Assembly (NCBI GenBank): GCA_964530995.1
Contig: CAZHCG010000003.1
Span: forward strand, 915-64,914
Direction of reading: 5' to 3'
Origin: an uncultured Myxococcales bacterium
GTDB lineage: Bacteria; Myxococcota_A; Polyangia; JAAYKL01
Length of the DNA stretch: 64,000 nucleotides
Shown here: positions 33,027 through 60,150 of the stretch, piece after piece
Numbering within the stretch: position 1 is the first letter of the stretch
Layout of the letters: each line of letters opens with the position of its first letter
Notes under the pieces: model-generated
What the model was told of the DNA's origin: nothing
Seen by the model: only the letters and a program-made list of their open reading frames with translations
The model's database searches: none
Program-made: the position numbers and the translations under genes

Positions 33027-34322
33027 TCAGCGCCCGGAGCCGATTCTCCTCGAAGCTCGCAGCGCCGCCGAGCGGGCGTGGGCCTCCAGGCCCTCGGCGC
33101 GCGCCAGGATCGCAGCGTCCTCGGCCAGCGCCTCCGCCGCTTTCGAATCGTCGACGCGCAGCCAGCTGCGGACCCTGAGAAAGGTCAGCACCGACAGCCC
33201 GGCGCCGAAGCGCGCCGTGCCCCCGGTCGGCAGCGTATGGTTGGGTCCGGCGCCGTAGTCGCCGAGCACCTCGGCCGCGCCGGCGCCGACGAACACCGCT
33301 CCGCAGTGCCGCAGGCGGCGCGAGAGCGCGCCGGCGTCCGCGGCGTGCAGCGCCAGGTGCTCGGGGGCCAGCAGATTGCAGACCTCCGCCGCCTCGCGAA
33401 CGTCGGCCGCGACCACCGTCGCCCCGTTGCGCGACAGCGACTCGCGCGCCACCGCCGCGGTGGGCAGCTCGGCCAGCCGGGCGGACAGCTCCCGCTCCAC
33501 CGCGTCGGCGAGCGCGGGCGAGTCGGTGACCAGGATCGCGACCGCGTCGGCGTCGTGCTCGGCCTGGGCAAGCAGGTCCGCGGCGACCAGCCCGGGATCG
33601 GCGTCTCGATCCGCCAGCACGGTCAGCTCGGAGGGACCGGCCAGCATGTCGATTCCGACCCGCCCGGAGACGAGCTGCTTGGCAGCCGTGACCCAGCGGT
33701 TCCCGGGTCCGACAACCAGGTCGCAGGCCGGAGCCGGCCCGGCCCCGAACGCCAGCGCGGCGATCGCCTGGGCTCCGCCCGCGACCAGCAGGCCGTCCGC
33801 TCCAGCGGCGGCCGCTGCGGCCAGGGTGACCGGAGCCGGCCGCGGCGAGGCGATCCAGGCGCTCTCCACTCCGGCGACGCGCGCGGGAACGACGGTCATC
33901 AGTACAGAGGAGGGCAGCGGAAAGCGTCCGCCCGGAGCGTAGCAGCCGGCGCGCTCCACCGGCAGCACGGTGTGACCCGCGGCCCCGCCCGGGACGGCGA
34001 CCTCGATCTCGGAGAGGCTGCCCAGCTGCGCCTCGGCGAAGCACCGGATCCGCTCGGCGGATCGCTCCAGCGCGCCGCGCAGCTCGGGTTCCAGCCCGGC
34101 CAGCGCCCGCCGCATCCGGGCCGGCTCGATCTCCAGCGCCTCGCCGGGACGCAGGTCGCCCAGCCGCTCGGAGTGCGCGCGCAGCGCCCGCTCCCCGTCG
34201 CGCCGCACGTCCTCCACGATCCGCGCCGCGGCGGCCAGCGTCTCGGGATCGACCGCTGCGCGGCCCCGGACGCGCTGCGCGGCCCGGCGCGGATCGATCC
34301 TCTCCAGCAGCGCGCCGCTCAT
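33027..34322 (-). CDS. hisD: Histidinol dehydrogenase.
   Basis: GCYAPGGRFPLPSSVLM; IDMLAGPSE; AQAEHD; DYGAGPNHTLPT. 431 aa starting at MSGALLERI. The start overlaps the upstream stop by 4 nt. Confidence 0.92.
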   Translation of the reverse strand: MSGALLERIDPRRAAQRVRGRAAVDPETLAAAARIVEDVRRDGERALRAHSERLGDLRPGEALEIEPARMRRALAGLEPELRGALERSAERIRCFAEAQLGSLSEIEVAVPGGAAGHTVLPVERAGCYAPGGRFPLPSSVLMTVVPARVAGVESAWIASPRPAPVTLAAAAAAGADGLLVAGGAQAIAALAFGAGPAPACDLVVGPGNRWVTAAKQLVSGRVGIDMLAGPSELTVLADRDADPGLVAADLLAQAEHDADAVAILVTDSPALADAVERELSARLAELPTAAVARESLSRNGATVVAADVREAAEVCNLLAPEHLALHAADAGALSRRLRHCGAVFVGAGAAEVLGDYGAGPNHTLPTGGTARFGAGLSVLTFLRVRSWLRVDDSKAAEALAEDAAILARAEGLEAHARSAALRASRRIGSGR

Positions 34323-35590
34323 CTCCGCCCCCTGCTGGGCTTGGCATCTCCCGGCCTGCGCGTGATCCGCAGCGCCCTGCGATCGAGCTCGGCCTCGACG
34401 TCGTCCCAGCCCACCCCGGCGCGGGCCATCGCCACCGCGACGAAGTAGACGACATCCGCGGCCTCGTGGACCGCCTCGTCGCGAGCCCGCGCCTCGGCCA
34501 GCTCCTCGGCCTCCTCGAGCAGCTTGGCGCGCAGCAGCTCCGGCTCGTCGAGCAGGCGGCGGGTGTAGGATCCGGCCGGCGCCTCCCGCGCGCGGCTCTC
34601 CAACGTGCGCAGCAGTCCGGGCAGCCCGCGATCGTCTCCGAAGCAGCCGCGCCTCTTCAGGTGGCAGAAGCCGGGCTCCGCCTGGCGCACCCGAAAGCGC
34701 AGCGCGTCGCGGTCGCAGTCCAGATCCACGCCCAGCAGCTGCTGGGTGGCGCCGGAGGAGGCGCCCTTGACCCACAGGCCGCGGCTGCGCGAACGGTAAA
34801 CGCCGCGCCCGGTGCGCAGCGCCTCGCGCACGCTCTCCGCGTCGGAGTAGACCAGCCCCAGCGCACGCCCGCTCTCGTCCGCGACCACGGTCGGCCACAG
34901 CCCGTCGGGCCGGTCCGAGCGCAGCGGCGCGACCAGCGCGTCGGCCAGCTCGAGGCGGCCGCTGTAGAGCGCCATCCCCACCTGCGCGTCGGCTCCGAGC
35001 GCGTCGATCGCGGCGACCTCCTCGGCGGTGGTCACGCCGCCGGCCACGGTCACGCGCGCCTCGCCCGCGGCCTCGACCACCGCCCGCACGCGCTCCATCT
35101 CGATCCCCTGCATCCGCCCTTCGCGCTCCACGAAGGTGACGAGCAGGCCGCCGGTGAAATCGCGCAGCTCGCGGATCCGCTCCAGCAGCTCGCGCCCGGT
35201 GCCGGTCCGCCAGCCCTCGACCACCACCTCTCCGCGCTCGGCGTCGACCGCGGCCACGACCCGCTCGCGGGGCAGCCGCGAGAGCAGCTCCGGCTCGGCG
35301 GCCGTGCCGATGATCACGCTCCGCGCCCCGGCGTCGAGCCAGCGCGCCGCGGTCTCGTAGTCGCGGACACCGCCGCCGACCCGGCAGGGGAAGCGCCGCA
35401 CCAGCTCTCGAATCGCGCCGCCGTTGTCTCCGCGCCCGGCCGCCGCGTCCAGGTCGATCACGGCGATCTCTCCGACCAGCGCGAAGCGCTCGGCGATCGG
35501 CAGCGGGTCGCCGGCGTCGATCTCCCGACGCCGGCCGCCCACCAGCTGCACCGCGCGGCCGTCCATCAAGTCTATCGAGGGAACGATCAT
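34319..35590 (-). CDS. hisA: Trifunctional fusion: ProFAR isomerase (HisA) + phosphoribosyl-AMP cyclohydrolase (HisI) + phosphoribosyl-ATP pyrophosphatase (HisE).
   Basis: HisA-like N-terminus [19 protein letters not shown]...VGGGVR. HisI core SRSRGLWVKGASSGATQQLLGVDLDCDRDALRFRV...CHLKRRGCFG. HisE-like C-terminus SYTRRLLDEPELLRAKLLEEAEELAEA. The start was set by codon arithmetic from the ORF end. Confidence 0.8.
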   Translation of the reverse strand: MIVPSIDLMDGRAVQLVGGRRREIDAGDPLPIAERFALVGEIAVIDLDAAAGRGDNGGAIRELVRRFPCRVGGGVRDYETAARWLDAGARSVIIGTAAEPELLSRLPRERVVAAVDAERGEVVVEGWRTGTGRELLERIRELRDFTGGLLVTFVEREGRMQGIEMERVRAVVEAAGEARVTVAGGVTTAEEVAAIDALGADAQVGMALYSGRLELADALVAPLRSDRPDGLWPTVVADESGRALGLVYSDAESVREALRTGRGVYRSRSRGLWVKGASSGATQQLLGVDLDCDRDALRFRVRQAEPGFCHLKRRGCFGDDRGLPGLLRTLESRAREAPAGSYTRRLLDEPELLRAKLLEEAEELAEARARDEAVHEAADVVYFVAVAMARAGVGWDDVEAELDRRALRITRRPGDAKPSRGRR

Positions 35591-36342
35591 CTCCTCACCT
35601 CCACGCCCAGCTCGGCCAGCTCCTGCTTGAGCCGCTCGACCGTGATCCGGCGGTAGTGGAAGATCGACGCGGCCAGCACCGCCGCGGCGCCGGCCTCGAC
35701 CGCGGCGGCCATGTGAGCCGCGCTCGACGCGCCGCCCGAGGCCACGATCGGAACGTCTACCCGGGCGGACGCCCCTTCGATCAGATCCGTGTCGTAGCCC
35801 CGGCGCGTGCCGTCGCGGTCCCAGGAGGTGAGCAGGATCTCGCCCGCGCCCCTGGCGGCTGCCTCGCCGCACCACTCCACGGCGTCGCGCCCGGTCCGGT
35901 TGCGCCCCGAGAGGGTCACGACCTCCCAGCCCCCGTCGGGCCGCGCCGCGGCGTCCACGGCCAGCACCGTGCACTGGCGCCCGTAGCGCCCGGCCAGCTC
36001 GTCGAGCAGACCCGGCCGCTCCACCGCCGCCGTGTTGACTCCCACCTTGTCCGCCCCGGCCTCGAGCAGCGCCGCCGCGTCCTCGACGCTGCGCACGCCC
36101 CCGCCCACGGTCAGCGGCAGCGCGATCCGCTCCCGGACCTCGGCGACCGTATCGGTCCGCGTGGCGCGTCCCTCCGGAGTGGCCGAAACGTCCAGCAAGG
36201 TGATCTCATCGGCTCCCTGCCGCCCGTACTCGCCGGCCAGCTCGGCCGGAGAGCCGGCGTCGCGCAGCGCCTGGAAGCGCACACCCTTGACGACCCGTCC
36301 GTCGCGCACGTCGAGGCAGGGGATGACTCGCACCGTCAGCAT
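35587..36342 (-). CDS. hisF: Imidazole glycerol phosphate synthase cyclase subunit HisF.
   Basis: [18 protein letters not shown]; [12 protein letters not shown]; [12 protein letters not shown]; SWDRDGT. 251 aa. Confidence 0.92.
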
Positions 36343-36962
36343 CGCGCACCTCCTGTGGCGGCGCCCGTCTCGATCCAGCGCCGCAGGATTCCGAGCCCCA
36401 GCTCGCCGCTCAGCTCCGGATGGAACTGGCAAGCCAGCACGGCGCCCCGCTCCAGGGCTGCGACGAACCGCCCGCCGTGGTCCGCGCTCGCCGCCAGCCA
36501 CCCCTCCGGCTCGCGCGCGAAGCGGTAGGAGTTGGCGAAGTAGACGTATCCCGCTGCGAGCAGCTCGCAGCCGGGATCGACCTCGATCCGGTTCCAGCCC
36601 AGCTGCGGCGAGGCGACCCCCGGAGGGAACGGCTCGGCGCTCGCCTCCAGCGCGCCCAGCCCCTCGGCCCCGGGGCTCTCCTCGCTGCCCGCGCCGAGCA
36701 GCTGCATGCCCAGGCAGATCGCCAGCGTGGGCCGGCCCTCGTCGATCCTCGATCGCAGCGCGCGGTCGCGGCCGTTGCTCCGCAGGCTCTCCATCGCCGC
36801 GGCCAGCGTACCGACACCCGGCACGACCAGCAGCCCGGCGCGCCGGACGTCGACCAGCTCGGCGCTGATCCTCGGCCCGGCTCCGAGACGAGCCAGCGCC
36901 GCGGTCACCGAGGCCAGGTTGGCCGTGCCGGTCCGCATCACCACCACCTCGGGCCCGGACAT
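36336..36962 (-). CDS. hisH: Imidazole glycerol phosphate synthase glutamine amidotransferase subunit HisH.
   Basis: Catalytic GICLGMQLL (nucleophile Cys) and QFHPE (His/Glu) of class-I GATases. 208 aa. Overlaps hisF and hisB by 7 nt and 1 nt. Confidence 0.9.
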   Translation of the reverse strand: MSGPEVVVMRTGTANLASVTAALARLGAGPRISAELVDVRRAGLLVVPGVGTLAAAMESLRSNGRDRALRSRIDEGRPTLAICLGMQLLGAGSEESPGAEGLGALEASAEPFPPGVASPQLGWNRIEVDPGCELLAAGYVYFANSYRFAREPEGWLAASADHGGRFVAALERGAVLACQFHPELSGELGLGILRRWIETGAATGGARC

Positions 36963-37549
36963 CAGAGGCTCTCCTTGGTGCTGGGGACGCGAGCGCCTCC
37001 GTCACGGGCGACGGCCTGCTCGAGCGCCAGGGCCAGCGCCTTGAACGCCGCCTCGGCCCGGTGGTGATCGTTGCGGCCGCGCAGCACGTCGAGGTGGATC
37101 GAGGCGCGCGCCGAGATCGCCAGCGAGCGCACCGCGTGGTCGATGTTCTCCGTCGAGAGGCCGCCCAGCCGCTCGCGCTCCAGCTCCAGCGAGACCTCGG
37201 CCCAGGGACGACCCGAGAGGTCCACGACCGCCCGCGCCAGCGCCTCGTCCAGCGGCGCCAGCGCCCAACCGAACCTGGCGATCCCGCGGCGCGCGCCTAG
37301 CGCCTCGTCGATCGCGGCGCCCAGCGCCAGCGCGCAGTCCTCGGCGGTGTGGTGGTCGTCCACCTCCAGGTCGCCGTCGCAGCTCAGCTCCAGGTCGAAG
37401 CCGGCGTGGCGCGCCAGCGCTGTCAGCAGGTGGTCCAGAAAACCTATCCCGGTCCTCGACTCGCAGCTTCCCTCGCCGTCCAGGCACAGCTTGAGCCGGA
37501 TCTCGGTCTCGGCGGTGCGGCGCTCGATCTCGGCCTTTCTCGGTTTCAC
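36962..37549 (-). CDS. hisB: Imidazoleglycerol-phosphate dehydratase, monofunctional (no HAD phosphatase domain).
   Basis: RRTAETEIRL; GIGFLDHLLTALARH; DHHTAEDCALALG; the IGPD metal-binding HxxxE/HH motifs. A GTG start is inferred. 195 aa. Confidence 0.9.
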   Translation of the reverse strand: MKPRKAEIERRTAETEIRLKLCLDGEGSCESRTGIGFLDHLLTALARHAGFDLELSCDGDLEVDDHHTAEDCALALGAAIDEALGARRGIARFGWALAPLDEALARAVVDLSGRPWAEVSLELERERLGGLSTENIDHAVRSLAISARASIHLDVLRGRNDHHRAEAAFKALALALEQAVARDGGARVPSTKESL

Positions 37550-39285
37550 GATATCACCTCCTCGATCTGTCCGGCGTTGGCCAGCACCCGGGCCGCTCCC
37601 GCCGCGAAAAGGGCGCGCCGGGCCACGGCCGGATCGTCGGCCGGCGCGATCGCCCCCAGCGGAACGACGCCGGCGCTCCGCGCGGCGCGCACGTCGTCCG
37701 GCGTGTCTCCGACCAGCCAGGCCCGCTCGACGCCGAGCCTTTCCAGCGCCAGCCGCACCGGCGCCGGGTCGGGCTTGAGCGGCGCGTCGTTCATCGTCAC
37801 CACCGCGCCGAACAGGTCTTCGATTCCCTGCTCGCGCAGAAACTGCTCCGCGTCCCTGCGCGGTCTGCCGGTCACCACGCCCAGCCGCACGCGCGCGGCG
37901 AGCCGCTCCAGCGTCGGCCTCTCGACCAGCGCGGTCTCGCGGTCCCTCAGACCGGGCCGCCCGGGCGCGCCCTGGTAGAGCTCCTCGAAGCGGGCGGTCA
38001 CCTCCTCCAGCGTGGCCTCGCGGCCGGCCTCCTCGAGCAGCCGCCAGGTCAGCTCCCAGTCGTTGTTGGCGTTTCCGGCGGCCTTGGCCGCGGTGATTTG
38101 CTCCGGCGTGATCCGCGCGCCGAACGACTCGGCCGTCGCGATCGTCGCGGCGCGGTAGGAGCCGCCCACGTCGGCCAGGGTGTCATCCACGTCGAACAGG
38201 ATCGCCTCGGGATCGAGCGCGGTGCGCAGGCCGTGCTCGAGGCGCTCCCAGCCGCCGGGATCGCCGGGCACGGTGATCCGCAGCCGATCGCGCAGATCGT
38301 CCCGCCCGGGAAAGGCGCGCACCGCGATTCCCAGCCCGGCCAGCGCGTCGCGGACCCAGCTCGCGTCCTCGAAGCCGGCCAGCGCAAAGTTGGCCTGGGA
38401 GGGCAGCGGGTCGGCGCCCAGCTCGCGCAGCAGCTCGCACAGCGGCTCGCGCTGCTCGCGCACGCGGGCGACGAAGGCGCGCACCTCGCGCTCCTCTTCC
38501 AGGCGCTCTTCTGCGGCGGCCAGCGAGGGACCGGAGACGGCATAGGGATGGCCGGCCGCGCGCAGCCAGTCGATAAGCTCCCGCGGTCCCGCGGCCCAGC
38601 CCACCCGGGCTCCGGCCAGGCCCCAGGCCTTCGACATCGAGCGCGCGACCACCGCGTTGGGCAGCTCCAGCACCGCGGCGGTCGGGTCGCTGTCGGCGAA
38701 CTCCACGTAGGCCAGGTCGACCAGCAGCAGCGCCCGCGGAGCGGCCGTGGCCAGGCGGCGCAGGTCCTCCTCCCCGACGACCAGCCCGGTGGGGCTGTTG
38801 GGCGTCACGACCGCGATCGTCGCGGTGCGCCCGGAGACCGCCCCCAGCATCTCCTCGATCGGAAAGGGACCGCCGAGCCAGCGCACGGGTCGCACCTCGC
38901 AACCGGTCAGCCCGGCGTAGCGCTCGATCATCTCGAAGGTCGGGACCGGCAGCAGCAGCTCGCGCCCCGGACCGAGCACCGAGCGGATCGCGCGTTCCAG
39001 CGCGTCGTCCGCCCCGGCCGTGACCAGCACGCGCCCCGGATCCAGCCCGATTCGCCCGGCGATCCTCGCCTCCAGGCCCTGCGTGCTCGGGTAGCGCCTC
39101 AGCAGCTCCGGTCCGGCCGCGGCGATCGCCTCCAGCGCCGCGCTCGAGGGAGCGGCTCCCTCGTTGCCGTCGAGCCGCAGATCGACGGGCGCGGGATGGC
39201 GCGGCGGATCGTAGCGCTCGACTCCGGCCAGCAGCGGTGATCGGCTCGGTCCCGATCCGGTGGTTTCCTCGCTCATGGCTCGCAC
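37546..39285 (-). CDS. hisC: Histidinol-phosphate aminotransferase (HisC) fused to a C-terminal HAD-superfamily phosphatase domain (putative histidinol-phosphatase).
   Basis: The N-terminal roughly 355 aa is PLP class I/II aminotransferase: VDLRLDGNEGAAP, ...SMSKAWGLAGARVGWAAG (PLP lysine context) and NFAL. The C-terminal roughly 220 aa carries HAD motifs: I LFDVDDTLAD; II VVTGR(P); III K...; IV GDTPDDVRAARSAG. Confidence 0.8.
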   Translation of the reverse strand: MRAMSEETTGSGPSRSPLLAGVERYDPPRHPAPVDLRLDGNEGAAPSSAALEAIAAAGPELLRRYPSTQGLEARIAGRIGLDPGRVLVTAGADDALERAIRSVLGPGRELLLPVPTFEMIERYAGLTGCEVRPVRWLGGPFPIEEMLGAVSGRTATIAVVTPNSPTGLVVGEEDLRRLATAAPRALLLVDLAYVEFADSDPTAAVLELPNAVVARSMSKAWGLAGARVGWAAGPRELIDWLRAAGHPYAVSGPSLAAAEERLEEEREVRAFVARVREQREPLCELLRELGADPLPSQANFALAGFEDASWVRDALAGLGIAVRAFPGRDDLRDRLRITVPGDPGGWERLEHGLRTALDPEAILFDVDDTLADVGGSYRAATIATAESFGARITPEQITAAKAAGNANNDWELTWRLLEEAGREATLEEVTARFEELYQGAPGRPGLRDRETALVERPTLERLAARVRLGVVTGRPRRDAEQFLREQGIEDLFGAVVTMNDAPLKPDPAPVRLALERLGVERAWLVGDTPDDVRAARSAGVVPLGAIAPADDPAVARRALFAAGAARVLANAGQIEEVIS

Positions 39286-39289
39286 CTCC

Positions 39290-40168
39290 TCACGGCACTA
39301 TCTGGGCCAGGTTCGTGACGACCACGTCTGTTCCGCCGCGCCGCTTGATCTCGGGAATCACCTGCGGCAGCCGGTCGCGGGGCACGGCCGCCTTGACCGC
39401 GTATCCCAGCCCGCCGTGCAGCGAGGCCAGCGTGGGCTCGCGCATGCAGGGCAGGGCCTCGACCACGTCCTCGAGCAACTCGGCCGGGACGTTGACCTCC
39501 ACCATCACGCGGCGCCTGGCCTCGAGCACGGCCTCGAGCAGGACCACCAGCCTTTCGAGCTGCTCGCGCCTGGCCGGGTCATCCAGCGCGACGCGGCTGG
39601 CGTAGAGCCTGGTGGAGGAGCGCATCAGCTCGTCGATCACGGCCAGCTTGTTGGCCCTCAGGGTCTCGCCGCTGGCAGCGTTGTCCACGATCAGGTCGGC
39701 GTCCTCGGGGGGGAAGACCTCGGTCGCGCCGTAGGAGCGCACGAAGACCGCCTCGATCCCGCGCTCCTCGATCCAGCGCCGGGTCAGCCGCTCGTACTCC
39801 GAGGCGACCACCAGCCGCCGTCGCGGCAGCCGTCCCGCGTCGTCCAGCAGGCCGGCCGGCGCCGCGGCCACCACGCGCACCGGGTCGAGCCCGGTGTCGA
39901 GCAGTTCCACCGCGCCGGAGCCAAGCTCGGCCGCCCAGTCCGCGCCGGCGAAACCGGCGTCCCGGGAGCCGGCCTCCAGCATCTCCACGATGCTCTGGGG
40001 CTTGAGGATCTTGGCTTCGATCCCGGCAACCGACACCGCCGGCCGGTAACCGCGCGAGGCCGCCGAGACGCGGATTCCCGCGTCCTCGAGCAGGCGCAGC
40101 ACGCCCTCCTGCATCCGGCCCTTGGGCAGGGCCAGTCGAATCCTGGCGTCGCTCTCTGGCTCGCTCAT
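39290..40168 (-). CDS. hisG: ATP phosphoribosyltransferase, long form with C-terminal regulatory domain.
   Basis: RIRLALPKGRMQEG; DIVDNAASGETLRAN-like PRPP-binding segment. 292 aa. The start was set at MSEPESD by codon arithmetic. Confidence 0.88.
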   Translation of the reverse strand: MSEPESDARIRLALPKGRMQEGVLRLLEDAGIRVSAASRGYRPAVSVAGIEAKILKPQSIVEMLEAGSRDAGFAGADWAAELGSGAVELLDTGLDPVRVVAAAPAGLLDDAGRLPRRRLVVASEYERLTRRWIEERGIEAVFVRSYGATEVFPPEDADLIVDNAASGETLRANKLAVIDELMRSSTRLYASRVALDDPARREQLERLVVLLEAVLEARRRVMVEVNVPAELLEDVVEALPCMREPTLASLHGGLGYAVKAAVPRDRLPQVIPEIKRRGGTDVVVTNLAQIVP

Positions 40169-40293: not shown

Positions 40294-40332
40294 TCAGGGC
40301 GCATGCCGGTGGTGCTGGCACATCTCGAACAT
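40294..40332 (-). promoter_or_regulatory. Candidate his leader peptide ORF (MFEMCQHHRHAP-stop), with three His codons in a four-codon stretch.
   Basis: The minus-strand reading is atg ttc gag atg tgc cag cac cac cgg cat gcg ccc tga. It lies 40-60 nt upstream of the terminator hairpin. An exact TTGACA (-35-like) sits about 35 nt upstream, but the -10 is poor. Coordinates are hand-counted. Confidence 0.35.
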
Positions 40333-40887
40333 GGTACGGAGAAGATGCCACCGAAAAGGCGGGCTGTCAACGAGCACTCCGCGCTGTGGGGAAATCGTTT
40401 CGGGCCGGGGGTCGGGCGGGGGGCGGTCGATCGCGATACCCCGGTCTCAGGCTGGTGAGCAGGCCGTGAAGCAAAACCAGGTTTCGGCGGACGCGCTGAA
40501 CCGAGCTGGGTGCGTGGACTATAACGATGCAGGATTCGGAGGGCCTCGGCAACGTACGGCGACCGAGCTCGGGCGACAGCTCCTTCAGTTTCTACAGGTC
40601 TGGAAGCCGGAATCCGAGTAGCGGGAGAGCTTCTCCATAACCTGGGTTGGGACACCGAATTCAAGTTGCCAGGGGGTGGCAAGTTCAGAATCTTCGCAAA
40701 GACCGGCGGAAGGAGAAATCAGCACAGGCTGCTGCTCAGACTTGCGTCCAGCGACGTTCTGAAACACATTTTCCTTAACGCTGGATTCCCGGTGGGAGAA
40801 CTGGTATCCTGCTTCTCGCCAAGACGCCGGAGGGGCGAAAGAAGATGATCTTCGCGTCAACTACGGTGTAGGTAACCCTAGTACGTC

Positions 40888-41109
40888 ATGCCGATACCCA
40901 AGGTCACAATCGACGGCGTGAGCGTCGTGATGCGAGGGTCGCTCAACCCGGCGATCTTCCAGCCCGTGTGGTTCAGCGCCAACGGTCTCGCCAAGAAGAG
41001 GGATGCCGACGATGCGCTTGTTGGCGTCGTTCATCCAGAGTTCACCGCGTTCCAAATGGGGTCGATTGACCTGACGATTGCTCATGGAAGGCGCTATCAC
41101 AGCGTCTAG
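40888..41109 (+). pseudogene. 73-aa ORF that appears to continue in another frame (about 41065-41409) with no start codon; likely one roughly 165-aa gene disrupted by a frameshift.
   Basis: Frame A ends ...TIAHGRRYHSV-stop. The +2 frame is open from just upstream (PDDCSWKALSQRLAPSSAWEKVLSEPRVRTVIVQGDREGG...DILEREFDKSV...) and ends 20 nt inside the next gene. It lies in the lower-GC islet. Confidence 0.3.
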
Positions 41110-41389
41110 CGCCTTCCTCGGCCTGGGAGAAAGTCCTCTCTGAACCGAGAGTTAGGACCGTCATCGTTCAGGGAGACCGTGAGGGCGGACGTGAAGGCTA
41201 CATTCAGCTGCACGCCGAGCCTTCCATACGAGAGTCCGACGGCGTTTACTTCAAGGTGAACGACCACTACGAGGTCGCGGCGTTGGACTCGGGAGTCGGT
41301 GCAGAGGCAGCGCTGGATATTCTAGAGAGAGAATTCGACAAGTCGGTGAGAATGTCCAAAGATATGGTGACAAAAACAATGGAGGCAGT

Positions 41390-41968
41390 ATGCTCGCCAG
41401 ACAGTTGAACGGTACGGCGGCAGCTTCTTATGCGCCCTACGACATGACCCTAGACGATCTGGAAACACCAGAGTCACCACAGTCACCACAGGATGAGCCC
41501 GATCCGGCAGAGTTGTCAGAGCCACTTCCTGCTGAGCAACCCCCCAGGCCGGAGACACTGCCTTCTCCCGAGGAGGAACCACAACCCAAGGTGTTTCCTT
41601 CCTCCACGGTAGCGCGTTGGCAAGCCACGCTCGTTCCGCAACCTAAGTTCACCGTTCTTCAGGCATGGGAGGGGACCGTTCGGGAAGTCCGTGAGGATTC
41701 CCTTGTCGTGGTATTGAAAGATCAGGGTGATGAACCCCAACCCGACGAAGAAGCAGAGGTCTATTTCGATGAGATCGACCCCGAGGACCACGACCTAGTG
41801 GCTCCGGGGGCGATCTTCTACTGGAGCATCGGCTATCGCGACGGTCGCAGCGGCCGTGAGCGCGTATCGCTGATACATTTTCGTCGTTTACCCGTCTATA
41901 CGGATGCAGATCGTGAGCGGGCTCGTGCAGCAGCCAAAGAAACCGCCGACAAGCTCGGCTGGGGGTAG
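41390..41968 (+). CDS. Hypothetical protein with an acidic Pro/Glu-rich N-terminus and a conserved-looking C-terminal domain (192 aa).
   Basis: The N-terminus reads ETPESPQSPQDEPDPAELSEPLPAEQPPRPETLPSPEEEPQP. The C-terminal 120 aa (FTVLQAWEGTVREV...IFYWSIGYRDGRSG...) has a globular composition. No known motif. Confidence 0.4.
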   Translation: MLARQLNGTAAASYAPYDMTLDDLETPESPQSPQDEPDPAELSEPLPAEQPPRPETLPSPEEEPQPKVFPSSTVARWQATLVPQPKFTVLQAWEGTVREVREDSLVVVLKDQGDEPQPDEEAEVYFDEIDPEDHDLVAPGAIFYWSIGYRDGRSGRERVSLIHFRRLPVYTDADRERARAAAKETADKLGWG

Positions 41969-43100
41969 TCTTCTCCTCTCGAGTCCAGTCGCTGACGACA
42001 TCGAGATTTCGTTGTTCGGGTCGGGATACGGTGAAGCCATTGCTGTCCACCTCGGTGCTGGCGAGTGGCTGTTGGTCGATTCCTGCCTCGATGATGAATT
42101 CCATGCACCGGCACAGATAGCCTATTTGCAGAAAATCGATGTTGACGTCGCTGCGGACGTGAAGCTGATCCTCGCTTCACACTGGCATGATGATCACGTA
42201 CGCGGACTGGGTCGAGCTATTGAGACATGTAGCAGCGCAAGGTTCTGCTGCTCGCAGGCGATGAAGCGCCAGGAATTCCTTGAGCTGGTAAAGCTGCACG
42301 AGCCCGGTTCGATGTCCAGCAACTCCGGCGTGCGCGAGTTTCATCGAATTCTCGATGTCCTCGAAGGGCGAGGGGCTGGCCGTTCAACGACGCAGTGGGC
42401 TCACGCGGATCGTTGTCTCTATCGGCGTCCTGCGAACGGTCAACTGCCTGCCTGCGAGGTGTACAGCCTGTCGCCATCGGACACAGCAGTAACGCAGGCC
42501 TTTCAGCGTTGGGGAACCATGCTCACGCAGAGCGTGGGCCCTGGCAGTCGAGTTCCCGCCGAGAATCCCAACTACGCGGCGGTCGTGCTCTGGGTACGCG
42601 TCGGTACACGCATCGTGTTACTCGCCTCGGACCTGGAAAACACAGCACAGAACGGGACTGGCTGGTCAGCCGTTCTGTCATCTACAGGACGGCCAGATGG
42701 CAGGGCTGCTGTCGTGAAGGTGTCGCACCATGGGTCGCAGTCTGGCGATCATCCAGACGTCTGGTCGACCCTGCTCGATCCCGATCCGGTAGCAGTCTTG
42801 ACCCCTTTCTCACGAGGTAGGCATCAGCTTCCCACACCAGCCGATATCTGCCGAATACGAGGTCAGAGTTCGCGAGCGTTCATCACCGCACCACCTCGCT
42901 TGAGACGAAGCCGTAGACGCAGTGGTTTGGTAGGTAGAACCCTGCGTGAGACCACGCGGTATGTTCGAGAGGCACACCCTCCAGTTGGTCACGTCAGGCT
43001 GCGAGCACCCTCAACTGGAACCAGTCCGTCGGAGTGGCGTGCACAGTGTTTCGGCCAAGCTCGACCGACAACCAAGCTACGAGCCGACGACTGGCGATAA
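41904..43100 (+). CDS. Metallo-beta-lactamase-fold hydrolase (HxHxDH = HWHDDH) with an Arg-rich C-terminal tail.
   Basis: FGSGYGEAIAVHLGAGEWLLVDSC (strand plus Gly-rich loop). LILASHWHDDHVRGL (motif II). VSHHGSQSG (distal His). The basic C-terminal 90 aa. The ATG at 41904 overlaps the previous gene by 65 nt; a TTG start near 42011 is an alternative. Confidence 0.6.
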   Translation: MQIVSGLVQQPKKPPTSSAGGSLLLSSPVADDIEISLFGSGYGEAIAVHLGAGEWLLVDSCLDDEFHAPAQIAYLQKIDVDVAADVKLILASHWHDDHVRGLGRAIETCSSARFCCSQAMKRQEFLELVKLHEPGSMSSNSGVREFHRILDVLEGRGAGRSTTQWAHADRCLYRRPANGQLPACEVYSLSPSDTAVTQAFQRWGTMLTQSVGPGSRVPAENPNYAAVVLWVRVGTRIVLLASDLENTAQNGTGWSAVLSSTGRPDGRAAVVKVSHHGSQSGDHPDVWSTLLDPDPVAVLTPFSRGRHQLPTPADICRIRGQSSRAFITAPPRLRRSRRRSGLVGRTLRETTRYVREAHPPVGHVRLRAPSTGTSPSEWRAQCFGQARPTTKLRADDWR

Positions 43101-43808
43101 CCGAGAGGGTCGAATCAACGTTTCGACCACGTCCACCAGGTCGCTTCGGACGCTCTCCACTATCACGTCCGCGCCGGCGTCTCTCAGCACCTCGGCGCTG
43201 TTGCCGCGGTAGGGCACTCCCACACACGGCGCTCCGATCTCGTGCGCGGCCCACACGTCGTGCGGGGTGTCTCCCACGATCACGACCGGCCTCTCTCCGC
43301 TCGGGTCGCAGCGGCGGGCTCCGGCGGCCAGCACCTCGGCGCGGCTGTGGCCGTCGTCGCCGTAGCCGCCCAGCGACATGTCGAACAGGTCGTCTACCCC
43401 GGCGCTGCGGAACTTGATCAGGCCGCCACTTCTCAGGTTGCCGGTCCCGAGCCCGACCACGGCGCCGGCCGACTCGAGGCTCTCGACCGCGGCGCGCGGA
43501 TCGCCCAGGACCACGTACGGCCTGTCCTTCACGTTCTCGGCCAAAAGCTCCAGGTATCTGTCGAGCAGCAGGTCGATCCGCTCGCGCGCCGGCTCCCGCT
43601 CGCCGGCCAGCTCGAGCATCGCGCGGGCGATCTGCACGTCGGTCCGGCCGGCGAACTGCAGCACGTCCTCGTACGGACGTTTTCCGGTCAGCATCTCTGC
43701 GGCGCGGTTCATCGCGGCGAAGCCGGCCGACTGTCCGCTGTCCGGCACGCCGAGCAGCGTACCGTCGATGTCGAACAGCACGATGGAAGAATGGCGCTTT
43801 TCACTCAT
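43077..43808 (-). CDS. HAD-superfamily hydrolase (phosphoglycolate-phosphatase-like).
   Basis: Motif I VLFDIDGTL. Motif II GLGTGN-like. Motif IV IVGDTPHDVWAAHEIGA. 243 aa. Confidence 0.75.
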   Translation of the reverse strand: MSEKRHSSIVLFDIDGTLLGVPDSGQSAGFAAMNRAAEMLTGKRPYEDVLQFAGRTDVQIARAMLELAGEREPARERIDLLLDRYLELLAENVKDRPYVVLGDPRAAVESLESAGAVVGLGTGNLRSGGLIKFRSAGVDDLFDMSLGGYGDDGHSRAEVLAAGARRCDPSGERPVVIVGDTPHDVWAAHEIGAPCVGVPYRGNSAEVLRDAGADVIVESVRSDLVDVVETLIRPSRLSPVVGS

Positions 43809-43826
43809 ACGATCCCCACTGTGACA

Positions 43827-44852
43827 TCATCGAGCGCGGTCGGCCAGGTGGGCCCGCCACAGCCGGCGGAACGCGGCTGCCAGGGCGTCGCCCAGCGCGG
43901 CCGTGGCCTGTTCGCTCCAGCTCTCGGGGTCGCCGCGCAGGAAGGTGGTCAGATCTCCGCGGTTGTCCATGATCGCGGCCGGCAGACGGAAAAGGCGGCC
44001 GCGCGCCTCGACCTGCACGGTGTCGGGCCTGGGAGAGCGCTCGATCAGCCACTGCATGTCGTCGGTGCCGTACTCGGAGCGCAGCACCTTCTCCGGCACT
44101 CCGTGGAACAGGATCGATCCGTCCGCGCCCGGTCGCGAACGCTGGCGATTCTTGCCCCGCGACTGCTCGGGCGTGACCTGGATGTAGAGAATCGCGGCTC
44201 GCTCCAACAGCTCGCTCGAAAAACGCGGCAGCGAGGCGGCGTAGCCGTGGTGGGGCGGCAGCGGCGGGATTGTTCCCTCCGGGCCCCCGCGCGCGAACTC
44301 GATCACGGCCGTCTTTCCTTCCAGCCCTTCGCCGGCCAGCCGGTCGAGCTGCTCGGCCAGCTCGGCGGCGGCCTCGCCGAGCGCCTCCTCGACCGCCGCT
44401 GCGGAGCTCGAGCCCCGCCCGGGCAGCGCCGGCCCGGCGCCCACCGTCCCGCGGGCGGCGTCGATCCGATCGGCCAGCCAGCGTCCCGGGTCCTCGGTTT
44501 CGATCCTCCGCCGGGAGCGGACCCGAGCATGGTCCTCGTCGACCAGCGCGATCAGGGTCTCCCAGTCGATGGGATCGATGAAGCCCCGGTCCGCCGCGGC
44601 GAAGAAGGCCCGCGGCTCGCCCCGCTCCTCCAGCGCCTCGTCGGCCAGCCGCATCGCGTGCACGTAGGGGTAGTCGTCGAGCTGGACCGTGGGACCGATG
44701 TGTAACCGCTGGCGGCACAGGGCGGGATCCAGCCGCTCCAGGTAGCGTCGCACCTCGGATTTCCCGCTGGCCGGGAGAGCCAGCAGCAATACCGCTTCTA
44801 TGATGTCGTCTCTCATTCGATGCACCTCTTCCGGCTCTGCCGGGTCTTTCAT
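43827..44852 (-). CDS. Hypothetical P-loop-containing protein (Walker-A-like ALPASGKSE).
   Basis: The start overlaps the MFS gene stop (ATGA). An alternative start lies 36 nt downstream (MRDDII). No further family assignment is possible. Confidence 0.45.
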   Translation of the reverse strand: MKDPAEPEEVHRMRDDIIEAVLLLALPASGKSEVRRYLERLDPALCRQRLHIGPTVQLDDYPYVHAMRLADEALEERGEPRAFFAAADRGFIDPIDWETLIALVDEDHARVRSRRRIETEDPGRWLADRIDAARGTVGAGPALPGRGSSSAAAVEEALGEAAAELAEQLDRLAGEGLEGKTAVIEFARGGPEGTIPPLPPHHGYAASLPRFSSELLERAAILYIQVTPEQSRGKNRQRSRPGADGSILFHGVPEKVLRSEYGTDDMQWLIERSPRPDTVQVEARGRLFRLPAAIMDNRGDLTTFLRGDPESWSEQATAALGDALAAAFRRLWRAHLADRAR

Positions 44853-53627: not shown

Positions 53628-54812
53628 TCAACCGCGCCGCCAGCGGCGCAGGCGGCGAATCGCCTCGTCCAGGATCGCGTCGCTCTTGCAGAAGCAAAGC
53701 CGGATCAGGCTGCGCCCACCGCGGCGGTTCTCGTGGAAGAACGAGGTCGGTATCGCGGCGACCCCCACCTCGGTCGCGAGGTGGCGGCACGCCTCCAGGT
53801 CGTCTCCGATCCCCAGCCCGCCGACGTCCACCGAGCAGTAGTAGGTCCCCTCCGGCCGCAGCACCTCCAGCCCCAGCTCCTCCAGCGCGCCGCAGAGACG
53901 CTCGCGCCTGGCCGCGTAGTCGGCCAGCAGCTCGTCGTAGTAGCCGTCCGCCGACTCCAGCGCCCCGGCGATCGCCTCTTGCAGCGCTCCGGGTGTGCAG
54001 AAGGTCAGGAACTGATGGCTCATCCGCACCGCGCGGGTCAGCCGCGGGCAGGCCGCGACCCAGCCCACCTTCCAGCCGGTCATCGAGAAGGTCTTGGCCG
54101 TGGAGGAGACCACCAGCGCCCGCTCGCGCAGGGCCGGAATCGAGAGCAGGGTGACGTGCTCGCGCCCGTCGTAGACCAGGTGCTCGTAGACCTCGTCGCC
54201 GATCACGACCGCGTCGCGAGCCGCGGCGAGCTCGGCCACCAGCTCCAGCTCGGCGCGGGAGCAGACCTTGCCGCAGGGATTCTGCGGGTTGTTGATCACG
54301 ATCGCGCGGGTGCGGGGACCGAGCGCCGCGGCCAGCGTCTCACGCTCGATGCGGTAGCCCCGCTCGCCGTCGAGCGGGACGAAGACCGGCCTGCCCCCGG
54401 CGCGAGCGACGATCGGCGCGTAGAGATCGTAGGCCGGCTCCAGCAGCAGCACCTCGTCGCCGGGATCGAGCAGACCCAGCAGCGTGGCGGCCAGCCCTTC
54501 GGTGGCGCCGGCCGTGACCGTGATCTCTCGGTCGGGATCGAGCTCCACCCCGTAGCGGCTCGCCATCTTGCCGGCCACGGCCCGCCTCAGCGCAGGCACT
54601 CCGTGGGACGGCACGTACTGATTGGGCCCGCGCAGCAGCGCCTCGGCCGCGGCGCGCCGGATCTCCTCGGGGCCGTCCCGGTCGGGAAATCCCTGGGACA
54701 GGTTGACCGCGCCGCACTCGGCGGCCAGCGCCGACATCTCGGTGAAGATCGACGTGCCGAAAGGCAGCAGCGCCCGGCAGACCGCGGCGTCCGTCTCTTC
54801 TCGCGGAGTCAT
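53628..54812 (-). CDS. PLP-dependent aminotransferase, class I/II (MalY/kynurenine-aminotransferase-like).
   Basis: NLSQGFP; NQYVPSHG; INNPQNPCG; SSTAKTFSMTGWKVGW (PLP-Lys context). 394 aa from MTPREETD. Confidence 0.85.
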   Translation of the reverse strand: MTPREETDAAVCRALLPFGTSIFTEMSALAAECGAVNLSQGFPDRDGPEEIRRAAAEALLRGPNQYVPSHGVPALRRAVAGKMASRYGVELDPDREITVTAGATEGLAATLLGLLDPGDEVLLLEPAYDLYAPIVARAGGRPVFVPLDGERGYRIERETLAAALGPRTRAIVINNPQNPCGKVCSRAELELVAELAAARDAVVIGDEVYEHLVYDGREHVTLLSIPALRERALVVSSTAKTFSMTGWKVGWVAACPRLTRAVRMSHQFLTFCTPGALQEAIAGALESADGYYDELLADYAARRERLCGALEELGLEVLRPEGTYYCSVDVGGLGIGDDLEACRHLATEVGVAAIPTSFFHENRRGGRSLIRLCFCKSDAILDEAIRRLRRWRRG

Positions 54813-54925
54813 GAAGCACCTCCCGCCACCCGCATAGCACGGGAGGCGCCCGCCTCCCAAGCCTCGCGACGAGCCTCCCCGGCTTCGCCGCGGCGGCGCA
54901 TCTGCTACACTCGGCCGACGAACCC

Positions 54926-60147: not shown

Positions 60148-60150
60148 GCG

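What the first reader, a model, noticed from the sequence alone, without database searches (positions are those of the whole stretch)
37546..39285. HisC fused to a HAD phosphatase while HisB is monofunctional: a relocated histidinol-phosphatase?
The 579-aa product has a complete class-II aminotransferase (HisC) followed by a complete HAD domain with motifs I-IV (DVDDTLAD ... GDTPDD). The hisB product here (195 aa) is IGP dehydratase only. It lacks the HAD-type histidinol-phosphatase domain that is fused to HisB in enterobacteria. The HAD domain on HisC could therefore supply the missing step 8 (histidinol-phosphate to histidinol), fused to the enzyme that makes its substrate. That would give a substrate-channelling arrangement different from the classical HisNB fusion.
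Basis: partly seen in the sequence, partly recalled or inferred. Interest (0 to 1): 0.5.

Follow-up and report, generated by a model that had tools for sequence, protein, structure and literature searches.

The report
HisC fused to archaeal-type histidinol-phosphatase
This gene encodes one protein that most likely performs two consecutive steps of histidine synthesis, and the same unannotated fusion probably fills the 'missing histidinol-phosphatase' gap in hundreds of bacterial genomes from many phyla.

Summary
One ORF (37546..39285, minus strand; the likely start is the ATG at 39276, giving 576 aa) joins a complete HisC-type aminotransferase to a complete HAD phosphatase, inside a tightly coupled operon: hisG, hisC~HAD, hisB (dehydratase only), hisH, hisF, hisA~hisIE, hisD.

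It is not a frameshift artefact. HisC and HAD are in one frame in 75 of 81 related loci from at least eight phyla, and more than 2,600 protein clusters match the whole fusion.

The HAD domain is not a relocated HisB-N domain. It belongs to the TIGR01548 family, which includes the Thermococcus (toHisN/Tt82) type and is reported to be related to the Nitrosopumilus enzyme nmHisN; both archaeal enzymes are proven histidinol-phosphatases. A profile-profile match to the Thermococcales family gives E = 1.9e-31 and includes the specificity cap. In T. kodakarensis the homologous gene directly follows hisC.

The window protein carries the published fingerprint in its untested 'Arg variant' (Y-R-K-D).

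With this domain assigned to step 8, the seven-gene operon encodes all ten steps. The function is inferred, not assayed, and substrate channelling is untested.

I found no description of this fusion in the papers I could search. Public records name it by one half only.

The parts
37546..39276 (-). hisC~hisN fusion gene (576 aa from the ATG at 39276; the mechanical ORF starts at the GTG at 39285, giving 579 aa). It is a predicted bifunctional histidinol-phosphate aminotransferase / histidinol-phosphatase.
   Evidence: ORF. Domains. The public gene call P0277 is identical over 576 aa. The fusion is in frame in 75 of 81 related loci.
38215..39276 (-). HisC (class I/II aminotransferase) half, about residues 1-354 of the 576-aa protein. 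The PLP-lysine motif S-M-S-K-A-W-G-L-A-G is present.
   Evidence: PF00155 at 4e-41. TIGR01141 hisC is the best NCBIfam model at 196 bits, below its 276.55 cutoff. Twelve of the 13 best PDB sequence matches are named histidinol-phosphate aminotransferases (E = 2e-29), and the N-P-x-G, D-x-A-Y, S-K and S-x-x-N-F motifs all align.
37549..38214 (-). HAD phosphatase half (about residues 355-576 of the 576-aa protein), TIGR01548 / toHisN-nmHisN type. This is the predicted histidinol-phosphatase (step 8).
   Evidence: TIGR01548 at 136.2 bits, E = 1e-39. Motifs I-IV are conserved. hhalign to the archaeal family gives E = 1.9e-31. The model has pLDDT 95.2.
37939..38175 (-). Helical C1 cap inserted after motif I. 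It carries the HolPase fingerprint positions Y377, R378, K401 and D409 (579-aa numbering).
   Evidence: Cap helices appear in the model. Conservation across 238 family members is Y 214, R 208, K 206 and D 232. The fingerprint is defined in PMC10804674. The columns align with S-Y-D...R...D of the Thermococcales proteins.
39290..40168 (-). hisG, long form (HisG + HisG_C), step 1. Its stop lies 13 nt upstream of the fusion's ATG.
   Evidence: Pfam. Sequence.
36962..37549 (-). hisB, monofunctional IGP dehydratase (step 6). Its GTG start overlaps the fusion's TGA stop (GTGA).
   Evidence: PF00475 only, and NF002111 at 242.8 bits, above its cutoff. The overlap is shown.
36336..36962 (-). hisH (glutamine amidotransferase subunit, step 5).
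   Evidence: Pfam GATase. The position is conserved in related operons.
35587..36342 (-). hisF (cyclase subunit, step 5).
   Evidence: PF00977 at 4e-71. Coordinates come from the 251-aa product used.
34319..35590 (-). hisA~hisIE fusion (steps 4, 3 and 2 in one 423-aa protein).
   Evidence: His_biosynth, PRA-CH and PRA-PH occur in one ORF. The fusion is in frame in 64 of 65 related loci.
33027..34322 (-). hisD (histidinol dehydrogenase, steps 9-10), the last gene of the operon.
   Evidence: PF00815 at 2.5e-130.

Best explanation
The gene encodes a bifunctional enzyme for steps 7 and 8 of histidine biosynthesis.

The N-terminal HisC half uses PLP to transaminate imidazole-acetol phosphate with glutamate, giving L-histidinol phosphate.

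The C-terminal HAD half is a Mg2+-dependent, aspartyl-phosphate-forming phosphatase. Asp365 is the nucleophile and Asp367 the general acid/base. Thr472 and Lys504 bind the phosphate, and Asp527, Asp530 and Asp531 bind the metal. It hydrolyses histidinol phosphate to histidinol. Its helical cap (Tyr377, Arg378, Lys401, Asp409) closes over the active site and recognises the imidazole/amino moiety.

The two halves are joined without a flexible linker, and the gene is translationally coupled to hisG upstream and hisB downstream. With this domain, the seven-gene operon (33027..40168) encodes all ten steps of the pathway.

What is shown here: the anatomy, intact catalytic motifs, family membership by profile comparison, conserved fusion and conserved operon context.

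What is inferred: the substrate (histidinol phosphate), the roles of individual residues (by analogy to nmHisN mutagenesis and general HAD chemistry), and any kinetic benefit of the fusion.
For: 1. Both domains are complete with intact catalytic residues.
2. The HAD domain is specifically TIGR01548: 136.2 bits against 61.7 for the next HAD family.
3. The best solved sequence relative of the family profile is 6iah, Tt82 of Thermococcus thioreducens (E = 1.9e-22).
4. The bacterial family aligns to the Thermococcales/Thermoplasmatota Tt82-type family at hhalign probability 99.9% and E = 1.9e-31 over 187 columns, including the cap. TIGR01548 is the only NCBIfam hit of those archaeal proteins.
5. 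PMC10804674 reports that toHisN (T. onnurineus) and nmHisN (N. maritimus; its gene lies between hisC and hisB) are experimentally proven HolPases. It gives the fingerprint Y24-D25-K56-E64 (Y-D-R-D in toHisN). It also reports that Euryarchaeota cluster II and delta-proteobacterial homologues carry Y-R-K-D and are 'likely HolPases'. The window protein has Y377-R378-K401-D409, conserved in 206-232 of 238 relatives.
6. In T. kodakarensis the homologue lies immediately after hisC, overlapping it by 17 nt, at the end of the his operon.
7. In 55 complete related operons the order is hisG-hisC~HAD-hisB-hisH-hisF-hisA~IE-hisD, with no other candidate for step 8.
8. In three loci the HisC half has been lost but the HAD gene keeps its slot between hisG and hisB. 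This suggests the HAD is the operon-essential part.
9. The full-length model is confident as one body (pLDDT 93.4, pTM 0.90).
10. The window contains no PHP, IMPase or HisB-N type phosphatase.
Against: - There is no enzymatic or genetic test.
- Fingerprint position D25 of nmHisN is Arg here. D25A lowers kcat/KM of nmHisN about 220-fold, and the authors said the Arg 'puts the HolPase function ... into question' for that cluster.
- The domain scores just under the curated TIGR01548 cutoff (136.2 against 140.2). The HisC half scores under the TIGR01141 equivalog cutoff (196 against 276.55).
- The nmHisN and toHisN sequences themselves were not available. The link runs through their Thermococcales orthologues and the paper's description.
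- Fold search alone does not separate this domain from other C1-capped HADs.
- Only 64 kb of the genome could be checked for an alternative HolPase.
Confidence: 0.85

Rival explanations
1. The HAD domain is an active phosphatase with a different physiological substrate. The Asp-to-Arg change in the cap could retarget it to an acidic phosphoester such as phosphoserine, a sugar phosphate or PLP. The true histidinol-phosphatase would then be encoded elsewhere.
For: The Arg replaces a fingerprint Asp that matters in nmHisN. Tt82 (6iah) is deposited simply as 'Phosphatase'; from my own recollection, not checked here, it was reported with broad specificity. HAD enzymes are notoriously promiscuous and often mis-annotated (PMC10804674). 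The whole genome could not be searched.
Against: The Arg variant is the one fused to HisC and embedded in a his operon in 75 of 81 loci across many phyla, with every other step present and no other step-8 candidate. Ten bacterial members with the archaeal Y-D version (at least six of them full fusions) occur in the same family, so both variants occupy the same niche. nmHisN did not hydrolyse PLP, phosphoserine or the sugar phosphates tested.
Confidence: 0.08
2. The aminotransferase half is not HisC but another class I/II enzyme, for example a CobD-like threonine-phosphate decarboxylase or an aromatic aminotransferase. On this view the fusion serves another pathway.
For: It scores below the TIGR01141 cutoff, and CobD (TIGR01140) is the second-best model at 171.9 bits. 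One of the top PDB matches is a 'putative phenylalanine aminotransferase'.
Against: hisC is the best NCBIfam model. Twelve of the 13 best PDB matches are named histidinol-phosphate aminotransferases. The gene sits between hisG and hisB in a complete his operon that has no other hisC.
Confidence: 0.04
3. The fusion is an assembly or sequencing artefact: a frameshift or lost stop codon joining two adjacent genes.
For: hisC and the HAD gene are separate, overlapping genes in Thermococcus, so an accidental join is conceivable in principle.
Against: The same in-frame fusion occurs in 75 of 81 independent loci, in 106 of the 150 best cluster representatives, and in more than 2,600 clusters at E <= 1e-60. 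An identical gene is found in an independent Logan assembly. The junction is modelled at pLDDT of about 95-97.
Confidence: 0.01
4. The HAD domain is a non-catalytic structural or regulatory appendage of HisC.
For: A few divergent fusions have lost the DxD motif, for example P0224 with 'GLLG'.
Against: In the window protein, and in more than 230 of 238 relatives, all catalytic residues are intact.
Confidence: 0.02

Closest known systems
Archaeal HAD-type histidinol-phosphatases: toHisN (TON_0887, Thermococcus onnurineus; Lee et al. 2008 as cited in PMC10804674) and nmHisN (Nmar_1556, Nitrosopumilus maritimus; Kinateder et al. 2024, PMC10804674). Curated family TIGR01548.
   Same: - HAD subfamily IA with a single helical cap after motif I.
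- Shared cap motifs: S-Y-[D/R], [K/R]-x2-G-x3-D-[W/F], F-x3-Y-x-G, G-L-x3-E and T-G-R.
- The gene lies immediately downstream of hisC: Thermococcus, and Nitrosopumilus according to the paper.
- The paper already listed 22 delta-proteobacterial homologues with Y-R-K-D as 'likely HolPases'.
   Different: - Here the domain is covalently fused to the C-terminus of HisC.
- The cap is shorter: about 4-5 helices in the model, against the 7 (toHisN) and 9 (nmHisN) reported.
- Arg replaces the fingerprint Asp.
- The hosts are bacteria of many phyla.
- The paper's main text does not mention any HisC fusion ('aminotransferase' occurs 0 times).
HisB-N of the enterobacterial bifunctional HisNB (HAD subfamily IIIA, 'DDDD' HolPase).
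   Same: It has the same reaction, the same superfamily and the same catalytic motifs I-IV. It is also fused to another his enzyme.
   Different: It is a different HAD lineage: no large helical cap, with short loops and a Zn site (PMC10804674). It is fused to the N-terminus of IGP dehydratase (steps 8+6, not consecutive) and not to the C-terminus of HisC (steps 7+8, consecutive). The TIGR01656 model is not met.
paHisN (PA0335, Pseudomonas aeruginosa), a phosphoserine-phosphatase-like HAD HolPase.
   Same: It is a monofunctional HAD HolPase identified as a 'missing' step 8.
   Different: It has a different cap architecture and a different fingerprint (D16-D18-Y47), and the authors judge it independently evolved. 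It is not fused to HisC.
Tt82 phosphatase of Thermococcus thioreducens (PDB 6iah).
   Same: It is the closest solved relative by sequence: profile E = 1.9e-22 and 27% identity. It carries S-Y-D ... R ... D-D-F. Its T. kodakarensis orthologue is in the his operon.
   Different: It is a stand-alone 240-aa archaeal protein with a larger cap. It is deposited as a generic phosphatase.

Membership tests
TIGR01548 / toHisN-nmHisN-type HAD histidinol-phosphatase | HAD catalytic motifs I (DxD), II (T/S), III (K/R) and IV (GDxxDD) | tested here: met
   D365/D367, T472, K504 and D527/D530/D531 are present, each conserved in at least 232 of 238 relatives.
TIGR01548 / toHisN-nmHisN-type HAD histidinol-phosphatase | A single all-helical cap inserted directly after motif I (C1 cap) | tested here: met
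   The AlphaFold model (pLDDT 95.2) shows helices 27-37, 44-52, 59-69, 76-88 and 96-99 between strand 1 and the core.
TIGR01548 / toHisN-nmHisN-type HAD histidinol-phosphatase | Profile-level homology to the characterised archaeal lineage, including the cap | tested here: met
   hhalign of A3 against A5 gives probability 99.9%, E = 1.9e-31 and 187 columns. 6iah is the top PDB sequence hit at E = 1.9e-22. The toHisN and nmHisN sequences themselves were not available.
TIGR01548 / toHisN-nmHisN-type HAD histidinol-phosphatase | Score at or above the curated NCBIfam cutoff (140.2 bits) | tested here: inconclusive
   The window domain scores 136.2 bits. Close relatives straddle the line: P0003 at 143.3, P0064 at 142.2, P0086 at 133.5 and P0134 at 128.5. 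The Thermococcus proteins, orthologues of the proven toHisN, reach only 57-71 bits. NCBI names several full-length fusions 'TIGR01548 family HAD-type hydrolase'.
TIGR01548 / toHisN-nmHisN-type HAD histidinol-phosphatase | HolPase fingerprint Y24, K56(R), E64(D) of nmHisN/toHisN | tested here: met
   Y377, K401 and D409 are present, and the K-to-acid spacing of 8 residues matches nmHisN.
TIGR01548 / toHisN-nmHisN-type HAD histidinol-phosphatase | Fingerprint D25 (Asp after the Tyr) | tested here: not met
   R378 replaces it, in 208 of 238 relatives. This is the same Arg variant the authors describe for Euryarchaeota cluster II and delta-proteobacteria, whose activity is untested. For that reason I file the domain as a member of the homologous family, but I treat HolPase activity as inferred.
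TIGR01548 / toHisN-nmHisN-type HAD histidinol-phosphatase | Location in a his gene cluster next to hisC | tested here: met
   It is fused to HisC between hisG and hisB. The same holds in 75 of 81 loci. The gene is adjacent to hisC in T. kodakarensis.
TIGR01548 / toHisN-nmHisN-type HAD histidinol-phosphatase | Hydrolysis of L-histidinol phosphate | not testable with these tools
   This requires an enzyme assay or genetic complementation.
HisC, histidinol-phosphate aminotransferase (TIGR01141) | Class I/II aminotransferase fold with the PLP-Lys (S-x-S-K) and the N-P-x-G, D-x-A-Y and S-x-x-N-F motifs aligned to solved HisC enzymes | tested here: met
   PF00155 at 4e-41. The alignment to 8bj1 covers residues 33-336 with these motifs matched, and 12 of the 13 best PDB hits are named HisC. 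The residues are invariant in 50 fusions.
HisC, histidinol-phosphate aminotransferase (TIGR01141) | Score at or above the equivalog cutoff (276.55 bits) | tested here: not met
   It scores 196.4 bits, which is still the best-scoring model. The assignment therefore rests on operon context and PDB matches, not on the curated threshold.
HisB-N (HAD IIIA histidinol-phosphatase domain, TIGR01656) | Match to the HisB-N domain model, with a capless/Zn-loop architecture | tested here: not met
   TIGR01656 is not among the 25 best models for the window protein. Relatives score 31-46 bits against a cutoff of 84.15. The model shows a large helical cap.
PHP-type (HisK/HisJ) and IMPase-type (HisN) histidinol-phosphatases | PHP or inositol-monophosphatase domain | tested here: not met
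   Neither domain occurs in the fusion or in any scanned ORF of the window.

The most novel reading that the evidence does not exclude
The linker-less HisC~HisN fusion may be a true metabolic machine and not merely co-expressed domains. The HAD domain would dock rigidly on the small C-terminal domain of HisC, so that histidinol phosphate passes directly from the PLP site to the phosphatase site. Irreversible hydrolysis would then pull the reversible transamination forward. Retention of only the last 30-77 HisC residues in lineages that lost the rest of HisC could mean that this segment has become part of the phosphatase's functional structure.
Probability: 0.15. Interest if true: 0.65.

Novelty: new variant of a known kind. 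Interest (0 to 1): 0.5.

Why it matters
Histidinol-phosphatase is the one step of histidine biosynthesis that different organisms carry out with non-homologous enzymes. It is the most frequent 'gap' in automated pathway reconstruction: low confidence in 28% of 148 prototrophic microbes in GapMind (PMC7311316).

This fusion points to the probable step-8 enzyme for large, mostly uncultured groups, namely Myxococcota, Phycisphaerae/Planctomycetota, Gemmatimonadota, Acidobacteriota, Acidimicrobiia, Methylomirabilota and others. Public records label the protein by only one of its halves.

The fusion to HisC is independent 'Rosetta-stone' evidence that the Arg variant of the nmHisN fingerprint is a real HolPase. 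The authors of the defining study had left that point open.

It also adds hisC, and through the neighbouring hisA~hisIE gene hisA as well, to the his genes known to undergo fusion. A 2023 review lists only hisD, N, B, H, F, I and E.

Finally, it documents a seven-gene operon covering all ten steps that is shared across phyla. That makes it a useful case for studying operon assembly and horizontal transfer.

Tried and rejected
- **Exact look-up of the 579-aa ORF:** it found nothing because the public gene call starts three codons later. This was resolved through P0277.
- **First homologue search with the HAD domain alone:** it returned no full-length fusion among its best 120 hits, mostly fragments from ~1-kb contigs. 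That briefly suggested the fusion was rare. The exhaustive representative search and the full-length search showed the opposite.
- **The ~369-aa proteins starting at the PLP-Lys motif:** I did not pursue these. Some are on contigs of 7.7-10.9 kb, but I did not check where on the contig they lie or how the start was called. They may be fragments or mis-called starts.
- **The Lee 2008 paper on TON_0887:** not held.
- **Supplements of PMC10804674:** not held. The nmHisN and toHisN sequences could therefore not be aligned directly.
- **The afdb50 fold library:** unavailable.
- **Foldseek against the PDB:** it ranks generic C1-capped HADs (3kbb, 2hsz) ahead of 6iah, so fold similarity does not discriminate function here.
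- **Model coordinates:** not exposed, so the distance between the two active sites could not be measured.
- **Rfam and tRNA scans:** no regulatory RNA upstream of hisG.
- **Literature phrase searches for a HisC-phosphatase fusion:** nothing relevant. This covers only the held library.
- **The second HAD ORF (43077..43808) as an alternative HolPase:** rejected. It lacks the S-Y-[R/D] and N-D-W cap motifs, does not hit TIGR01548, and matches phosphoglycolate-phosphatase-like models only weakly.
Full report
**Observation**

The window contains, on the minus strand, an uninterrupted ORF at 37546..39285 (579 aa from the first GTG). Pfam places a class I/II aminotransferase domain at residues 46-340 (E = 4e-41) and HAD hydrolase models at 360-540 (E = 1.5e-19).

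The sequence just upstream reads TGA-GGAGG-TGCGAGCC-ATG. The TGA is the hisG stop. It is followed by a Shine-Dalgarno sequence and, 8 nt later, by the ATG at 39276. The public gene call for this very sequence (P0277, 576 aa, 100% identical) uses that ATG. I therefore take the gene as 37546..39276. Residue numbers below follow the 579-aa ORF; subtract 3 for the 576-aa protein.

At the 3' end the TGA stop overlaps the GTG start of hisB (GTGA), preceded by GAGGAGG. hisB is a 195-aa IGP dehydratase with no phosphatase domain.

**The surrounding operon**

The gene is the second of seven tightly packed minus-strand genes spanning 33027..40168. Their junctions are 1-7-nt overlaps or a 13-nt gap.

- hisG, long form
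- hisC~HAD
- hisB
- hisH
- hisF
- a single ORF joining HisA, HisI and HisE domains
- hisD

If the HAD domain performs step 8, these seven genes encode all ten steps. A Pfam scan of 38 other ORFs in the window found no PHP-type, IMPase-type or HisB-N-type phosphatase.

The only other HAD is at 43077..43808. It is a weak phosphoglycolate-phosphatase-like protein that does not hit TIGR01548.

**Not an artefact, and not rare**

An exhaustive HMMER search of 1.84 billion cluster representatives returned 150 best hits. In 106 of them both domains are complete in one chain of about 550-620 aa. A second search found 2,654 clusters (at 90% identity) matching at E <= 1e-60, and the best 120 are all two-domain proteins of about 527-600 aa.

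A scan of one genome per species found at least 340 loci encoding a relative. I analysed the best 80 plus loci fetched earlier by tblastn with the window's own His proteins.

- HisC and HAD lie in one frame with no stop in 75 of 81 non-redundant loci.
- The order hisG-hisC~HAD-hisB-hisH-hisF-hisA~IE-hisD is complete in 55 loci.
- HisA~HisIE is fused in 64 of 65 loci.

The record titles name Myxococcota/Polyangia/Bradymonadia, Planctomycetota (mostly Phycisphaerae), Gemmatimonadota (including Longimicrobiales), Acidobacteriota, Acidimicrobiia, Methylomirabilota, Krumholzibacteriia and others. The window's arrangement is thus the typical form of a widespread operon.

**What the HAD domain is**

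Among NCBIfam models its best match is TIGR01548, 'HAD-SF-IA-hyp1' (136.2 bits, E = 1e-39, cutoff 140.2). The next HAD model, phosphoglycolate phosphatase, scores 61.7 bits.

The catalytic motifs are intact: D365-x-D367, T472, K504, and D527/D530/D531. Each is conserved in at least 232 of 238 relatives. A model built from 40 stand-alone relatives is very confident (pLDDT 95.2, pTM 0.90). It shows a Rossmann-like core with one helical cap inserted after motif I.

**Link to characterised enzymes**

Kinateder et al. 2024 (PMC10804674) report the following:

- The Nitrosopumilus maritimus gene Nmar_1556 lies between hisC and hisB and encodes a specific histidinol-phosphatase, nmHisN.
- nmHisN is related to the earlier characterised Thermococcus onnurineus enzyme toHisN.
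- Four cap residues, Y24, D25, K56 and E64 (Y-D-R-D in toHisN), are critical for activity.
- A Euryarchaeota cluster and 22 delta-proteobacterial homologues carry Arg at the D25 position. The authors call them 'likely HolPases', less reliably.

I could not obtain the nmHisN or toHisN sequences, so I tested the link indirectly in four ways.

1. A profile of the bacterial family finds PDB 6iah as its best solved relative (E = 1.9e-22). Entry 6iah is 'Phosphatase Tt82 from Thermococcus thioreducens'.
2. Orthologues of Tt82 occur throughout Thermococcales. In T. kodakarensis KOD1 the gene is the last of the his operon, hisG-D-B-H-A-F-IE-C-HAD, and overlaps hisC by 17 nt. The paper groups the T. 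kodakarensis enzyme with toHisN.
3. A profile-profile comparison of the bacterial family (A3) with the Thermococcales/Thermoplasmatota family (A5) gives probability 99.9% and E = 1.9e-31 over 187 columns. The aligned cap-specific motifs are S-Y-[R/D], [K/R]-x2-G-x3-D-[W/F], F-x3-Y-x-G, G-L-x3-E and T-G-R.
4. TIGR01548 is the only NCBIfam model the Thermococcus proteins hit.

On this alignment the window protein's fingerprint is Y377-R378-K401-D409. The K-to-acid spacing is 8 residues, as in nmHisN. This is the Arg variant. The four residues are conserved in 214, 208, 206 and 232 of 238 relatives. Ten relatives keep the archaeal Asp at position 378, and at least six of those are full fusions.

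**What the aminotransferase half is**

Its best NCBIfam model is hisC (TIGR01141, 196 bits), although this is below the equivalog cutoff of 276.55. CobD is second at 172 bits.

Against the PDB, 12 of the 13 best matches are named histidinol-phosphate aminotransferases and one is a putative phenylalanine aminotransferase (best E = 2e-29). The alignment spans residues 33-336 and matches these motifs:

- L-D-x-N-E
- G-A-D
- N-x-P-x-G
- D-x-A-Y
- the PLP-lysine motif S-K-x-x-G-L-A-G-x-R-V-G
- P-S-x-x-N-F
- the R-I/V-T/S motif

These residues are invariant in 50 aligned fusions. Together with its position between hisG and hisB, in an operon with no other hisC, I accept it as HisC.

**How the two halves are joined**

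A full-length model built from 50 fusions has mean pLDDT 93.4 and pTM 0.90. The last aminotransferase helix (340-354) runs into the first HAD strand (358-361) within three residues. The junction has pLDDT of about 95-97 and there is no disordered linker. A pTM this high for a two-domain chain suggests a defined mutual orientation. From general knowledge, HisC enzymes are dimers. The geometry between the active sites, and any channelling, therefore remain open.

**Variants that bear on the evolutionary history**

Three loci lack the HisC half but keep the HAD gene between hisG and hisB. They retain progressively shorter remnants of the HisC C-terminal small domain:

- L001 keeps window residues 273 onward.
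- L077 keeps residues 284 onward.
- L016 (the same genome as L002-L004) keeps residues 319 onward.

One further locus, L072, has a HAD gene with no his genes nearby. The remnants show recognisable similarity to HisC but have lost its conserved motifs. This is most simply explained by secondary deletion of the HisC half from an ancestral fusion. It also shows that the HAD is the part retained in the operon.

In archaea, hisC and the HAD gene are adjacent but separate (Nitrosopumilus according to the paper). Fusion of neighbouring genes is therefore the obvious origin.

**Mechanism proposed**

HisC converts imidazole-acetol phosphate and glutamate to histidinol phosphate. The HAD domain hydrolyses histidinol phosphate through an aspartyl-phosphate intermediate on D365, with Mg2+ held by D365 and D527/D530/D531. 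The cap residues Y377, R378, K401 and D409 bind the substrate's imidazole and amino groups. HisD then oxidises histidinol.

The chemistry is inferred from the HAD superfamily and from nmHisN mutagenesis. The substrate is inferred from homology, from the fusion and from the operon completeness argument.

I put this at 0.85. The main rival is that the Arg variant has another substrate and the real HolPase lies elsewhere (0.08). Against that rival stands the near-universal fusion of this variant to HisC inside complete his operons.

**Comparison with what is known, and novelty**

The phosphatase family is known: toHisN from 2008 and nmHisN from 2024. Bacterial homologues were already flagged as likely HolPases.

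The covalent fusion to HisC appears undescribed in the literature I could search. The defining paper's main text never mentions an aminotransferase. A 2023 review of his-gene evolution lists hisD, N, B, H, F, I and E as the genes that have undergone fusion, with neither hisC nor hisA among them. Phrase searches found nothing.

Public records name these proteins 'histidinol-phosphate aminotransferase', 'TIGR01548 family HAD-type hydrolase' or 'aminotransferase class I/II-fold ...', and never as bifunctional.

The fusion differs from the classical HisNB enzyme in three ways:

- the HAD lineage (capped subfamily IA against capless IIIA);
- the partner (HisC against HisB);
- the logic (consecutive steps 7+8 against non-consecutive steps 8+6).

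I rate it a new variant of a known kind, with moderate interest of 0.5. Its value is in closing a common annotation gap across several phyla, in supporting the untested Arg-variant fingerprint, and in providing a tractable candidate for studying coupling between consecutive enzymes.

**Limits**

- No biochemical evidence was available.
- Only 64 kb of this genome could be examined.
- The characterised enzymes were reached through orthologues and a published description, not by direct alignment.
- The literature check covers only the held library.

Noticed in passing
window 34319..35590 (-): hisA, hisI and hisE are fused into one 423-aa ORF (His_biosynth + PRA-CH + PRA-PH). The same fusion is in frame in 64 of 65 related loci. 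A 2023 review of his-gene fusions does not list hisA among the fused genes, so this trifunctional fusion may also be undescribed.
   Followed up: partly
L002 and L004 9340..10722 (Longimicrobiales MAG, same genome as L016): hisH and hisF are called as one 460-aa gene (GATase + His_biosynth), like the eukaryotic HIS7 fusion. In the related assembly L003 they are two genes.
   Followed up: no
proteins P0182, P0195, P0197, P0205, P0210, P0220 and roughly 20-35 others of 440-540 aa: This is a second class of HisC fusions. A complete HisC is followed by a HAD core that lacks the ~80-residue cap carrying the HolPase fingerprint. The HAD part of P0182 matches PpaX-like models and not TIGR01548. It could be a different phosphatase, or one that borrows specificity from HisC.
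   Followed up: partly
L001 8001..8918; L077 about 8719..9690; L016 about 8830..9687: These are HAD genes in the hisG-hisB slot that keep only a degenerate remnant of the HisC C-terminal domain (window residues 273-, 284- and 319-349). They look like stages of HisC loss from an ancestral fusion.
   Followed up: yes
proteins P0224, P0221, P0180: These are full-length fusions whose HAD half has lost catalytic residues. For example, motif I is 'GLLG' in place of DxDG in P0224. They are possible pseudo-phosphatase domains.
   Followed up: no
window about 40300..44000: GC drops to 0.60-0.64 immediately upstream of hisG, against 0.70-0.76 in the operon. The ORFs at 41390..41968 and 41904..43100 have no Pfam match. 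A PGP-like HAD lies at 43077..43808. Relatives L002-L004 have an integrase and AAA_25 genes upstream of hisG. This may be a variable or island region next to the operon.
   Followed up: no
window 53628..54860 (-): This is a separate 410-aa class I/II aminotransferase (PF00155, E = 9e-64). It was not characterised further, so its relation to histidine or aromatic amino-acid metabolism is unknown.
   Followed up: no
window 57756..57840 (-): ARAGORN calls a tRNA-Gly(ccc) inside the 1490-aa ORF 56554..61026. Rfam finds no tRNA there at its gathering threshold, so this is probably a false positive.
   Followed up: partly
proteins P0022, P0134, P0145, P0172, P0188, P0193, P0246: These bacterial family members keep the archaeal-type S-Y-D in place of S-Y-R; at least six are full fusions. 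They are useful natural controls for testing whether Asp or Arg at this position matters.
   Followed up: no
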